The notes beneath the pieces were generated by a model. The model did no database searches. It was not told the origin of the DNA and saw nothing but the letters and a program-made list of their open reading frames with translations. From Candidatus Peregrinibacteria bacterium (GTDB taxonomy: Bacteria > Patescibacteriota > Gracilibacteria > UM-FILTER-43-11), in the NCBI GenBank assembly GCA_030618315.1, contig JAUXDO010000001.1, positions 1 to 43,841 of the forward strand: 43,841 nt of DNA. The letters are read 5' to 3'. Below, piece by piece: positions 12,980 to 35,969 of this stretch. Both the position numbers and the translations under genes were made by a program. Position 1 is the stretch's first letter. Each line of letters opens with the position of its first letter.

Positions 12980-12994
12980 TCCCGCTAAGCGGGA
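12980..12994. repeat. 15-nt palindrome TCCCGC-TAA-GCGGGA, copy
   Basis: The same 15-mer occurs at 13059-13073 and 35629-35643. A loop variant (TTA) occurs at 35458-35472. Confidence 0.85.
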
Positions 12995-13058: not shown

Positions 13059-13073
13059 TCCCGCTAAGCGGGA
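13059..13073. repeat. 15-nt palindrome TCCCGC-TAA-GCGGGA, copy
   Basis: Exact copy. The extended match ctcccgctaagcgggat is shared with the tRNA-Gly fragment at 35627-35644. Confidence 0.85.
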
Positions 13074-13140
13074 TCAGGGTCTTGCTACGTACTGGCCTCG
13101 GAAGTTCATCGTTCGGTTATTTTATATTGTTAGCAGTTAC

Positions 13141-35317: not shown

Positions 35318-35431
35318 ATTCGGGTATCTTAAGGTAGCGATTATATCCTAGAGATTGGCAAAGTCAATTAAAATGAAAAAGACCTTGAACTCTGACTGAA
35401 AACTATCTAGAATAATTTAGCAAATTGACAA

Positions 35432-35486
35432 GCGGGTATCGTATAATGGCTATTACCTCCCGCTTAGCGGGATGATAGGGGTTCGA
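35432..35486 (+). pseudogene. tRNA-Gly 5' fragment with the anticodon arm replaced by a 15-nt palindrome
   Basis: 35432-35457 is identical to tRNA positions 1-26. 35458-35472 is tcccgcttagcggga. 35473-35486 is identical to tRNA positions 44-57. The sequence then diverges, with no 3' T-stem or acceptor strand. Confidence 0.8.
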
Positions 35487-35504
35487 AATCATAGGAAAAA
35501 ATAT

Positions 35505-35579
35505 GCGGGTATCGTATAATGGCTATTACCACGGCCTTCCAAGCCGTTGATAGGGGTTCGATCCCCCTTACCCGCTCCA
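35505..35579 (+). tRNA. tRNA-Gly (anticodon UCC), CCA encoded
   Basis: Manual cloverleaf. Acceptor gcgggta/tacccgc, anticodon stem acggc/gccgt with loop cuUCCaa, T arm agggg-ttcgatc-cccct, discriminator U, then CCA. Confidence 0.85.
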
Positions 35580-35617
35580 AAAAATTCTTCACTATGTTAA
35601 GTGGAGTTTTTTGTTAG

Positions 35618-35675
35618 TGGCTATTACCTCCCGCTAAGCGGGATGATAGGGGTTCGATCCCCCTTACCCGCTCCA
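35618..35675 (+). pseudogene. tRNA-Gly 3' fragment with the anticodon arm replaced by a 15-nt palindrome
   Basis: 35618-35628 is identical to tRNA positions 16-26. 35629-35643 is tcccgctaagcggga. 35644-35675 is identical to tRNA positions 44-75, including CCA. There is no 5' acceptor strand. Confidence 0.8.
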
Positions 35676-35771: not shown

Positions 35772-35792
35772 ATCTCCACCAGAGGTGGAGAT
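35772..35792 (-). terminator. Rho-independent terminator (bidirectional context)
   Basis: atctccacc-aga-ggtggagat is flanked by an A-run upstream and a T-rich tract downstream. On the minus strand it is followed by TTTTTT after the zinc-ribbon gene. Confidence 0.65.
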
Positions 35793-35819: not shown

Positions 35820-35969
35820 CTATTTCTTCTTTGAAGGAAGAATCCTGTACATTCCGCATCCGCATGTACCACATTTACCTTTCATAGCAGGTCGGCCATT
35901 CTTCATTTTTACTTCTTTAGCGTCTTCAATTTCACGCTTTTTCTTACATTTTACACAATATCCTTGCAT
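35820..35969 (-). CDS. Small zinc-ribbon protein (DUF5679-like)
   Basis: MQGYCVKCKKKREIEDAKEVKMKNGRPAMKGKCGTCGCGMYRILPSKKK has a CxxC...CxxC layout. I prefer the start at 35969 over the longer track ORF. Confidence 0.6.
   Translation of the reverse strand: MQGYCVKCKKKREIEDAKEVKMKNGRPAMKGKCGTCGCGMYRILPSKKK

What the first reader, a model, noticed from the sequence alone, without database searches (positions are those of the whole stretch)
35432..35675. Intact tRNA-Gly(UCC) flanked by two partial copies whose anticodon arm is swapped for a dispersed 15-nt palindrome
Fragment 1 (35432-35486) matches tRNA positions 1-26 and 44-57 exactly. Fragment 3 (35618-35675) matches positions 16-26 and 44-75 exactly. 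In both, the 17-nt anticodon arm is replaced by TCCCGC-T(T/A)A-GCGGGA, a 6-bp stem with a 3-nt loop. The two fragments overlap by about 40 nt (D-loop to T-loop). They look like one variant, anticodon-less tRNA-like gene split by a 131-bp insert carrying the functional tRNA, with a 40-nt duplication. The same palindrome occurs twice after ybaB (12980-12994 and 13059-13073). The flanks are perfectly identical to the live tRNA, which implies a recent event or ongoing gene conversion. Possible explanations include palindrome-mediated recombination, remnants of an integration (att) event, or a tRNA-like decoy RNA.
Basis: seen in the sequence. Interest (0 to 1): 0.7.

Follow-up and report, generated by a model that had tools for sequence, protein, structure and literature searches.

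The report
Nuclease-element scar around a tRNA-Gly gene
The two broken tRNA copies beside the working tRNA-Gly gene are what remains after a small selfish nuclease gene was lost; the "palindrome" is that nuclease family's recognition hairpin, and in many uncultured bacteria related nucleases sit at tRNA genes in the same way, which the one paper on the family does not mention.

Summary
It lies in a Candidatus Peregrinibacteria genome.

The interpretation needs revising. Three related genomes have the same fragment 1 with the same hairpin. In them an 85-aa single-domain GIY-YIG nuclease gene fills exactly the 18-bp gap that separates fragment 1 from the tRNA in the window. Two of these loci have no fragment 3, so fragments 1 and 3 are separate scars, not one gene split by an insert.

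I then examined 80 metagenomic relatives of this nuclease:
- 66 lie within 350 nt of a co-oriented tRNA gene, of many different isoacceptors.
- They are typically flanked by partial or complete copies of that tRNA.
- In those copies the D, anticodon or T arm is replaced by a GC-rich hairpin (TCCCGC, TCCGCC or TCCCGA stems).
- The stem type co-varies with the nuclease's C-terminal motif.

The hairpin core equals the core of the Neisseria NTS/dRS3 repeat. That repeat is the ssDNA recognition site of the Ssn nuclease family (Chenal 2025), whose paper never mentions tRNA.

The window therefore holds a nuclease-less relic of an Ssn-like nuclease/hairpin module, plus two orphan hairpins after ybaB. 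How the module duplicates tRNA segments is inferred, not shown.

The parts
35385..35413 (+). Promoter-like site (TTGAAC-17-TAGAAT) upstream of fragment 1. It is probably the native tRNA promoter.
   Evidence: Consensus scan. The region is about 66% identical to the stretch upstream of fragment 1 in L007. In L011 the native promoter of the empty-site relative L008 lies upstream of fragment 1.
35432..35457 (+). Fragment 1, 5' part: an exact copy of tRNA-Gly positions 1-26.
   Evidence: blastn-short, 26/26. Alignment A3.
35458..35472 (+). Hairpin P1, TCCCGC-TTA-GCGGGA, replacing the anticodon arm. It is an Ssn/NTS-core-type hairpin.
   Evidence: The same stem sits at the same place in L007, L011 and L100. 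The core equals the NTS core (PMC11893778).
35473..35486 (+). Fragment 1, 3' part: tRNA positions 44-57, ending in the T loop.
   Evidence: blastn-short, 14/14.
35487..35504 (+). 18-bp spacer (aatcataggaaaaaatat). This is the position that an 85-aa GIY-YIG ORF occupies in relatives, so it is the presumed deletion scar.
   Evidence: In L007, L011 and L100 the ORF starts 5-12 nt after the T-loop remnant and ends with TAG inside the D loop of the intact tRNA. No GIY-YIG remnant is detectable in the window by tblastn.
35505..35579 (+). Intact, functional-looking tRNA-Gly(UCC).
   Evidence: ARAGORN. Rfam RF00005, 61.4 bits.
35587..35612 (+). Intrinsic-terminator-like hairpin and T run after the tRNA.
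   Evidence: A similar ...AGTGGAG-T-run follows the tRNA in L007.
35618..35628 (+). Fragment 3, 5' part: tRNA positions 16-26.
   Evidence: blastn-short, 11/11.
35629..35643 (+). Hairpin P2, TCCCGC-TAA-GCGGGA, the reverse complement of P1.
35644..35675 (+). Fragment 3, 3' part: tRNA positions 44-75, including CCA.
   Evidence: blastn-short, 32/32.
12980..12994 (.). Orphan copy of the hairpin in the ybaB-downstream intergenic region.
   Evidence: No tRNA-like or GIY-YIG signal nearby.
13059..13073 (.). Second orphan copy. Its immediate flanks (C...T, then TCAGGG) resemble the tRNA-fragment context.
   Evidence: 17/17 identity to 35628-35644 and 20/21 to the L011 and L100 fragment 1 context.

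Best explanation
The locus is a decayed, nuclease-less copy of an Ssn-like module: a small single-domain GIY-YIG nuclease gene plus its cognate hairpin. In Peregrinibacteria this module sits at the tRNA-Gly(UCC) gene.

Shown. In relatives an 85-aa GIY-YIG gene lies exactly between fragment 1 and the tRNA, and the window keeps only 18 bp there. Fragments 1 and 3 are partial copies of the resident tRNA in which the anticodon arm has been exchanged for the hairpin TCCCGC-NNN-GCGGGA. The live tRNA is untouched and keeps its promoter-like site and terminator. The same arrangement recurs with many other tRNAs. Hairpin type co-varies with nuclease type.

Inferred. The hairpin is the nuclease's binding site on single-stranded DNA, as demonstrated for Neisseria SsnA and its NTS repeat. 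The tRNA-derived segments act as portable homology that lets the module recombine into, or next to, the cognate tRNA gene. One arm pairs with the 5' or 3' part of the tRNA and the other with the whole tRNA. The result is either 5'-fragment, ORF, tRNA or tRNA, ORF, 3'-fragment, without inactivating the essential gene. Replacing an arm by the hairpin breaks the continuity of homology and makes the spare copy non-functional. Repeated events would give tandem arrays. The window then combines one scar of each layout and has since lost the ORF or ORFs. The two ybaB hairpins would be dispersed solo copies.
For: Architecture in relatives. L007, L011 and L100 each have fragment 1 with the TCCCGC hairpin, then the GIY-YIG ORF (Pfam PF01541, E 1.3e-19), then tRNA-Gly(UCC). 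L008 has the same gene context as L011 with a plain tRNA, that is, an empty site.

Generality.
- Of 80 metagenomic relatives, 66 have a co-oriented tRNA within 350 nt and 48 within 60 nt.
- Partial copies of that same tRNA flank the ORF in most loci.
- TCC[CG][GC]-type hairpins occur at 0.90/kb within 600 nt of the ORFs and 0.08/kb elsewhere.
- 49 of 93 such hairpins have a 10-nt flank identical to the neighbouring tRNA, and together they replace D, anticodon or T arms.
- Full-length hairpin variants and tandem arrays are seen in L080, L086, L054, L065 and L061.

Cognate pairing. The nuclease C-terminal motif class tracks the hairpin stem class (chi-square 43.9, p 7e-9, not corrected for relatedness). 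The Peregrinibacteria proteins fall in the TCCCGC class.

Constraint. Fragment 1 is 81-97% identical among four genomes, against 69-74% for the ORF DNA and 51-66% for the upstream DNA. All hairpin stems are 12/12 conserved.

Known biology. Ssn nucleases are about 94-aa single-domain GIY-YIG proteins. They bind hairpin repeats such as NTS (CGTCATTCCCGCGMAVGCGGGAATCYRG) only as ssDNA and cut upstream of them. 71% of ssn homologues have flanking hairpins (PMC11893778). The family profile A2 has invariant Y6, Y17 and E63, against the SsnA catalytic residues Y6, Y17 and E64. A2 aligns over its full length to a Sphingobium homologue flanked by canonical Ssn-related motifs (SRMs) (hhalign 97.6%).
Against: - No nuclease gene or remnant is detectable in the window. 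Whether this genome still encodes one elsewhere is unknown.
- The hairpins lack the GTCWY 5' flank and do not match the published SRM search pattern.
- Membership of the nuclease in CDD cd10448 could not be tested. It is about equally similar to UPF0213 structures (1zg2).
- No biochemical data exist for this clade.
- The recombination mechanism is inference. The intact tRNA sits next to the element, and nothing shows what, if anything, the nuclease cuts in vivo.
- A test for a cut-site signature failed: tRNA-identical stretches are short on both sides of the hairpins, not only upstream.
- In some loci the hairpins replace only half an arm, so 'arm for arm' is not exact.
Confidence: 0.72

Rival explanations
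1. One reading: an anticodon-less tRNA-like gene (1-26, hairpin, 44-75) was split in its T loop by a 131/171-bp insert that carries the functional tRNA, creating a 40-nt target duplication.
For: It is formally consistent with the window. Recombination between the two 40-nt repeats would leave a complete hairpin-bearing tRNA-like gene. Full-length hairpin-bearing tRNA-like genes exist in other loci, namely L080, L086 and L075.
Against: L011 and L100 have fragment 1 and the tRNA but no fragment 3. The orthologous empty site (L008) holds a normal tRNA-Gly, not a variant gene. The two hairpins differ at the centre. The 5'-type and 3'-type fragments occur independently in dozens of loci.
Confidence: 0.08
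2. Remnants of integrase-mediated site-specific integration and excision at a tRNA gene (attL/attR-type repeats).
For: tRNA genes are classical integration sites, and the direct repeats are of tRNA sequence.
Against: There is no recombinase in this locus or in any of the 83 related loci inspected. The repeats are internal tRNA segments (16-57) rather than the 3' end. A conserved foreign hairpin replaces an arm. The gene that travels with the structure is a GIY-YIG nuclease.
Confidence: 0.04
3. The hairpin-bearing tRNA copies are functional RNAs: for example an mRNA leader or trailer for the nuclease, a decoy, or a guide-like partner of the nuclease. They would then not be DNA-level homology or recognition elements.
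For: Fragment 1 lies between the promoter-like site and the tRNA, so it is probably transcribed. In L080, L086 and L089 complete variants lie next to promoter-like TTGACA/TATATT boxes or T runs (read by eye, not scanned). Fragment 1 is more conserved than the ORF.
Against: In the window neither fragment can form an acceptor stem, and fragment 3 lies behind a terminator. The hairpins are almost always perfect palindromes, with no excess of G-T over A-C mismatches, which gives no sign of RNA-level selection. SsnA does not bind RNA (PMC11893778).
Confidence: 0.12
4. Assembly artefact or chance duplication.
For: Short-read metagenome assemblies can mis-join repeats, and I found no independent contig spanning fragment 3.
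Against: An independent assembly reproduces fragment 1 plus the tRNA and breaks exactly at the repeat boundary. The architecture recurs in three other Peregrinibacteria assemblies and in many unrelated contigs. The 15-mer occurs 4 times against 0.02 expected.
Confidence: 0.03

Closest known systems
Ssn nucleases and their hairpin repeats (SsnA with NTS/dRS3 of Neisseria; the wider set of Ssn-related motifs, SRMs), Chenal et al., Nat Commun 2025 (PMC11893778)
   Same: Both have a small single-domain GIY-YIG protein of 80-95 aa with Y6, Y17 and E63/64. In both, the gene is flanked by GC-rich hairpin repeats, and solo copies are dispersed in intergenic DNA. The hairpin core TCCCGC...GCGGGA is identical to the NTS core. 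Hairpin and nuclease co-vary as cognate pairs.
   Different: The hairpins here lack the oriented GTCWY/RNCY flanks and fail the published SRM pattern. The genes sit at tRNA genes, and the hairpins are embedded in copies of that tRNA in place of its arms. The paper never mentions tRNA, and I did not see this context at the two alphaproteobacterial homologues checked. The window itself has no nuclease gene. ssDNA cleavage is untested for this clade.
REP/BIME repeats with RAYT transposases, and IS200/IS605 (hairpin-recognising ssDNA transposases)
   Same: A small nuclease gene is flanked by its own hairpin repeats, which also proliferate as solo copies. The nuclease's action is presumed to be on single-stranded DNA.
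   Different: The enzyme fold is different (HUH Y1 transposase against GIY-YIG). No tRNA-copy context is described for them. This comparison rests on the Ssn paper's discussion and general knowledge, not on a test here.
Free-standing GIY-YIG homing endonuclease elements that carry a replacement piece of their target gene (fungal mitochondrial atp6/cox elements; T4 SegB in the tRNA gene cluster)
   Same: Insertion leaves the essential target gene functional, and a displaced partial copy of it sits next to the nuclease ORF. The target is a highly conserved gene.
   Different: Those enzymes have separate DNA-binding domains and cut double-stranded DNA, and no signature hairpin replaces part of the displaced copy. 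This is recalled from the literature and was not tested here.
Integrative elements that target tRNA genes through tyrosine integrases
   Same: Direct repeats of tRNA sequence lie beside an intact tRNA gene.
   Different: There is no integrase. The repeats are internal tRNA segments. A hairpin substitutes an arm. The element is only about 0.3-0.45 kb.

Membership tests
Ssn nuclease / SRM hairpin system (PMC11893778) | A single-domain GIY-YIG protein of about 90 aa with the catalytic Tyr, Tyr and Glu | tested here: met
   This holds for the relatives, not the window. P0001, P0002 and P0042 are 85 aa and match only PF01541. The family alignment A2 has invariant Y6, Y17, R27, H31 and E63, against SsnA Y6, Y17 and E64.
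Ssn nuclease / SRM hairpin system (PMC11893778) | The protein belongs to CDD cd10448 (GIY-YIG_unchar_3) | not testable with these tools
   No CDD library is available. hhalign to an SRM-flanked Sphingobium homologue gives 97.6%, but the PDB profile search gives UPF0213 (1zg2) at E 1e-14. The subfamily is unresolved.
Ssn nuclease / SRM hairpin system (PMC11893778) | The nuclease gene is flanked by cognate hairpin repeats, with solo copies elsewhere | tested here: met
   49 of 80 loci have at least one hairpin within 400 nt and 14 have them on both sides. Density is 11-fold higher near the ORFs. Hairpin class co-varies with nuclease class. The window has two solo copies at 12980 and 13059.
Ssn nuclease / SRM hairpin system (PMC11893778) | The hairpin matches the published SRM pattern HGTCWY..YYVSBRH..WNVSBRG..RNCYNB | tested here: not met
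   The regular expression finds none of the window copies and only 2 sites in the 83 loci. It does find both flanking repeats of the Sphingobium control. Only the palindromic core (TCCCGC/GCGGGA) is shared with NTS.
Ssn nuclease / SRM hairpin system (PMC11893778) | Site-specific cleavage of ssDNA only, a few nt upstream of the hairpin | not testable with these tools
   This needs biochemistry. An indirect test, the length of tRNA-identical DNA upstream against downstream of the hairpins, was inconclusive.
Ssn nuclease / SRM hairpin system (PMC11893778) | A nuclease gene is present at the locus under study | tested here: not met
   tblastn of three family members against the whole 43.8-kb window gives nothing better than E 4. 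The window locus is an ORF-less relic.
tRNA (RF00005), for fragments 1 and 3 | A complete cloverleaf with an acceptor stem and an anticodon loop | tested here: not met
   Only 35505-35579 is called by ARAGORN and Rfam. The fragments lack one acceptor strand each and have a 3-nt loop in place of the anticodon loop.
Integrase-type tRNA att site | A linked tyrosine or serine recombinase, and repeats that cover the 3' end of the tRNA | tested here: not met
   None of the neighbouring window ORFs scanned against Pfam is a recombinase, and none appeared among the called genes of L100. The other related loci were read only around the tRNA and nuclease ORF. The repeat covers tRNA positions 16-57 plus a foreign hairpin.

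The most novel reading that the evidence does not exclude
A large clade of Ssn-like single-domain GIY-YIG nucleases, found in Patescibacteria, Ignavibacteriota, Marinimicrobia and Bacteroidota, forms a so far undescribed kind of tRNA-gene-associated selfish element. It uses pieces of the target tRNA as portable homology arms. It swaps tRNA arms for its own recognition hairpin in the spare copies. It can switch between tRNA species. The window shows its fossil. If so, these loci give the Ssn family, whose role outside Neisseria is unknown, a concrete genomic behaviour and a testable target.
Probability: 0.4. Interest if true: 0.8.

Novelty: new variant of a known kind. Interest (0 to 1): 0.62.

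Why it matters
Ssn nucleases were described only in 2025. Their role outside Neisseria is open, and the describing paper merely notes that hairpin-gene-hairpin 'looks like an insertion sequence'.

The loci found here add three things:
- a consistent genomic target, namely tRNA genes of many specificities;
- a characteristic product, namely tRNA copies whose arms are replaced by the cognate hairpin, sometimes in tandem arrays;
- co-variation between nuclease and hairpin.

This turns 'are Ssn modules mobile, and how?' into a question that can be tested with oligonucleotide cleavage assays and comparative genomics.

It also has practical consequences. It explains a class of pseudo-tRNA fragments and odd tRNA calls in metagenome-assembled genomes. 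For example, ARAGORN called hairpin-bearing copies tRNA-Ile, tRNA-Ala and 'tRNA-???'. It also flags a repeat structure that breaks short-read assemblies at tRNA genes.

Tried and rejected
1. A metagenome scan for the exact D-arm plus hairpin junction (GGCTATTANNTCCCGCNNNGCGGGA) found nothing.

2. A viral-contig scan for hairpin plus T arm found only GC-rich phage tRNA-like genes with no GIY-YIG nearby. They are probably unrelated.

3. I asked whether the hairpin is selected as RNA, by looking for a G-T excess over A-C among imperfect stems. There were too few mismatches and no excess.

4. I asked whether fragment boundaries mark an SsnA-like cut about 9 nt upstream of the hairpin. tRNA-identical stretches are short (8-14 nt) on both sides, so there is no directional signal.

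5. Permuted or split-tRNA and head-to-tail junction readings of the palindrome were rejected. CCCGC/GCGGG equals the acceptor-stem strands, but the flanking bases do not fit and the same hairpin occurs with unrelated tRNAs.

6. A CRISPR-like reading of the two ybaB copies was rejected. They share nothing beyond the 15-17-mer.

7. The Rfam low-threshold scan of the ybaB intergenic region gave only noise.

8. Independent contigs across fragment 3 were not on record.

9. Literature searches for a GIY-YIG and tRNA link in bacteria found nothing. Two searches turned up the Ssn paper.

Full report
**1. The observation**

The window carries one tRNA, tRNA-Gly(UCC), at 35505-35579 (ARAGORN; Rfam RF00005 at 61.4 bits). 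blastn-short of this tRNA against the window returns four further exact segments:
- positions 1-26 at 35432-35457;
- positions 44-57 at 35473-35486;
- positions 16-26 at 35618-35628;
- positions 44-75 at 35644-35675.

Between the paired segments lie the 15-mers TCCCGCTTAGCGGGA (35458-35472) and TCCCGCTAAGCGGGA (35629-35643). These two are reverse complements of each other. The 15-mer recurs at 12980-12994 and 13059-13073, in the intergenic region after the ybaB-like ORF. That is 4 matches against 0.02 expected. Each copy folds as a 6-bp, 3-nt-loop DNA hairpin of about -6.2 to -7.5 kcal/mol.

An independent Logan assembly (L001, SRR14923477) reproduces fragment 1, the 18-bp spacer and the tRNA. 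It stops at the last base shared with fragment 3, as a de Bruijn graph would at a repeat. Only fragment 3 lacks direct independent confirmation.

**2. Organism and comparative anatomy**

The neighbouring penicillin-binding protein finds its relatives in Candidatus Peregrinibacteria/Patescibacteria MAGs. All six related loci have a tRNA-Gly(UCC) nearby.

Four of them have a plain tRNA with no fragments: L003, L004, L006 and L008. In L005, whose tRNA matched only in part, no fragments were seen either.

L007 has the window's architecture with one addition:
- fragment 1, made of positions 1-27, then TCCCGCCTAGCGGGA, then the variable loop and 5' T stem;
- an 85-aa ORF;
- the intact tRNA, followed by a terminator-like stretch;
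- a degenerate 3' fragment beginning with TCCCGCGAAGCGGGA.

The ORF is a GIY-YIG domain protein (PF01541, E 1.3e-19). Its ATG follows the T-loop remnant by a few bases. Its last four codons and its TAG stop are tRNA positions 1-15.

Two closer homologues of this protein (69-71% identity) lie on other contigs. These are L011 (ENA ERZ27227323) and L100 (ENA ERZ23491059). Both show fragment 1, TCCCGCTAAGCGGGA, the ORF and tRNA-Gly(UCC), and neither has a fragment 3.

L011 has the same flanking genes as L008: the Ion_trans_2 gene, the tRNA and the homologue of the window's 135-aa ORF. L008 is therefore an empty site and L011 a filled one. The native promoter region lies upstream of fragment 1.

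In the window the ORF position is occupied by 18 bp. No GIY-YIG remnant is detectable anywhere in the 43.8 kb. The window is thus an ORF-less derivative.

In all four genomes the fragments carry the lineage-specific bases of their own tRNA (alignment A3). Fragment 1 is 81-97% identical between genomes. The ORF DNA is 69-74% identical and the upstream DNA 51-66%. The hairpin stems are invariant.

**3. The arrangement is general**

A scan of metagenome contigs with an alignment of the three nucleases returned 80 loci at 40-57% identity.
- In 66 of them a co-oriented tRNA gene lies within 350 nt of the ORF, and in 48 within 60 nt, often overlapping the stop codon.
- The tRNAs are of many kinds: Gly, Ser, Gln, Tyr, Asp, Met, Val, Asn, Arg, Pro, Lys, Ala, Glu, His and Cys.
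- In most loci, partial copies of that same tRNA lie on the other side of the ORF. Two layouts occur: 5' fragment, ORF, tRNA, and tRNA, ORF, 3' fragment. Sometimes both are present, as in L022, L035, L072 and the window.

Reading these loci shows that the part of the tRNA missing from the copies is replaced by a GC-rich perfect hairpin. The stems are TCCCGC(C), TCCGCC or TCCCGA(T).
- Such hairpins occur at 0.90 per kb within 600 nt of the ORFs, against 0.08 per kb in the rest of the loci.
- 49 of 93 have a 10-nt flank identical to the neighbouring tRNA.
- They stand in for the D arm, the anticodon arm or half of it, the variable region, or the T arm.

Complete hairpin-bearing tRNA-like copies exist in L080, L086, L075 and L089. 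Tandem arrays exist in L054, L061, L065 and L080. ARAGORN mis-calls some of these as tRNA-Ile, tRNA-Ala or 'tRNA-???'.

The nuclease's C-terminal motif tracks the hairpin class:

| C-terminal motif | Dominant hairpin stem | Loci |
|---|---|---|
| [WYFH]K[GS]G | TCCCGC | 5 of 6 |
| KSxxGR | TCCGCC | 17 of 19 |
| [WMK]K[SN][RK] | TCCCGA | 10 of 12 |

The chi-square is 43.9 (p 7e-9), not corrected for relatedness. The Peregrinibacteria proteins (FKGG, YKSG) belong to the TCCCGC class, which matches the window's palindrome.

**4. What is known**

The literature search led to Chenal et al. 2025 (PMC11893778).
- Ssn nucleases are single-domain GIY-YIG proteins (SsnA is 94 aa; CDD cd10448; catalytic Y6, Y17 and E64).
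- They bind a hairpin repeat only as single-stranded DNA and cut a few nucleotides upstream of it.
- In Neisseria the repeat is NTS, CGTCATTCCCGCGMAVGCGGGAATCYRG. This is the core of the long-known dRS3 repeat.
- 71% of ssn homologues have such Ssn-related motifs (SRMs) in their flanks.
- The authors remark that hairpin-ssn-hairpin resembles an insertion sequence, and that the role outside Neisseria is unknown.
- The paper contains no occurrence of 'tRNA'.

The window's palindrome has the same six-base-pair core as NTS. The family profile A2 has invariant Y6, Y17 and E63. It aligns end to end (97.6% and 98.5% hhalign probability) with alphaproteobacterial small GIY-YIG proteins. One of these, from Sphingobium, is flanked on both sides by canonical SRMs.

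Two membership criteria fail or remain open.
- The hairpins here lack the oriented GTCWY flank and do not match the published SRM pattern, which does find the Sphingobium control.
- The CDD subfamily could not be determined. UPF0213 structures are about equally close.

I therefore call the system Ssn-like, not a tested member.

**5. Mechanism**

Shown:
- the anatomy and its recurrence;
- the empty and filled sites;
- the nuclease-hairpin co-variation;
- conservation of the hairpin and concerted evolution of the fragments with the tRNA.

Inferred:
- The hairpin is the nuclease's ssDNA recognition element.
- The tRNA-derived segments serve as homology. One arm pairs with part of the tRNA and the other with the whole tRNA. 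A double crossover, or annealing of single-stranded DNA at a fork or during transformation, then inserts 'hairpin, remnant, ORF, 5' part' or its mirror image. The tRNA stays intact under its own promoter.
- This reproduces the junctions seen in L011 against L008, and it explains why the copies start or end at tRNA boundaries.
- Replacing an arm by the hairpin interrupts the homology, so recombination yields an insertion rather than simple replacement. It also keeps the spare copy from acting as a tRNA.
- Repeated events would give arrays.

I rate this specific mechanism at roughly one in three. What the nuclease cuts in vivo is unknown. A search for a directional cut-site signature was negative.

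**6. Rivals**

- The 'one split variant gene' model is contradicted by L011 and L100, which lack fragment 3, and by the normal tRNA at the empty site.
- An integrase att site is contradicted by the absence of any recombinase and by the nature of the repeats.
- A functional decoy or guide RNA cannot be excluded for the full-length variants elsewhere. It is unlikely for the two truncated copies in the window, one of which lies behind a terminator. SsnA does not bind RNA.
- An assembly artefact is unlikely, given L001 and the recurrence in other assemblies.

**7. Verdict**

The finding is real. It is best read as the fossil of an Ssn-like nuclease/hairpin module at the tRNA-Gly gene, plus two solo hairpins.

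The window's locus by itself is a relic of modest interest. The broader pattern it exposes is more interesting: small GIY-YIG nucleases nested at tRNA genes, among tRNA copies whose arms are replaced by the cognate hairpin. I did not find this described in the held literature. It gives a testable handle on the biology of a newly described nuclease family.

Novelty: a new variant of a known kind.

Noticed in passing
L013 297-324, L015 4224-4251 (-), L016 2632-2659, L017 7694-7721 (IMG/VR contigs): Homologous GC-rich viral contigs carry a complete tRNA-like gene whose anticodon arm is TCCCGC-CTT/CAT-GCGGGA. This reads as a 3-nt loop, or as a 7-nt loop closed by two extra G-C pairs. ARAGORN does not call it, and no GIY-YIG gene is nearby. 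It may be an unrelated kind of closed-loop phage tRNA-like gene.
   Followed up: partly
L012 1-660 (Logan SRR26074222): A GIY-YIG ORF 49% identical to P0001 is flanked by three copies of a tRNA 3'-half-like repeat (...GGTTCGAGTCCG..CGCTACA). No intact tRNA is present on the 1-kb contig.
   Followed up: partly
L053 2361-2434, L077 2699-2772, L078 2845-2918: Clusters of 10-11 tRNA genes include a tRNA with anticodon CTA, which ARAGORN labels 'tRNA-Pyl' and which could be an amber suppressor. It lies next to a GIY-YIG ORF. This may indicate a phage or a recoded genome.
   Followed up: no
L080 2440-3362: A 420-bp unit is repeated in tandem: an 83-nt hairpin-bearing tRNA-Asp-like gene, a terminator and a GIY-YIG ORF. 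The unit lies just downstream of a normal tRNA-Asp. ARAGORN calls one of the three variant copies (2860-2942) tRNA-Ile(GAT).
   Followed up: partly
window 35772-35792 and 35820-35969 (-): A perfect 9-bp bidirectional terminator-like hairpin (ATCTCCACC-AGA-GGTGGAGAT) follows a small Cys-rich ORF with a DUF5679 domain (PF18930, E 2e-14).
   Followed up: no
window 13059-13095: The second ybaB hairpin shares its immediate flanks with the tRNA-fragment context: C-hairpin-T, then TCAGGG against TGAGAGGGG. CCAGTAC after the first hairpin is complementary to GTACTGG after the second. This may be a decayed fragment or a larger structure.
   Followed up: partly
L019 1011-1024, L030 510-521, L040 2699-2710: The long variable arms of normal tRNA-Ser genes in these loci are themselves TCCCGC-TT-GCGGGA or TCCGC-AA-GCGGA hairpins. 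They resemble the element hairpins, which may hint at the motif's origin or at a source of false positives.
   Followed up: no
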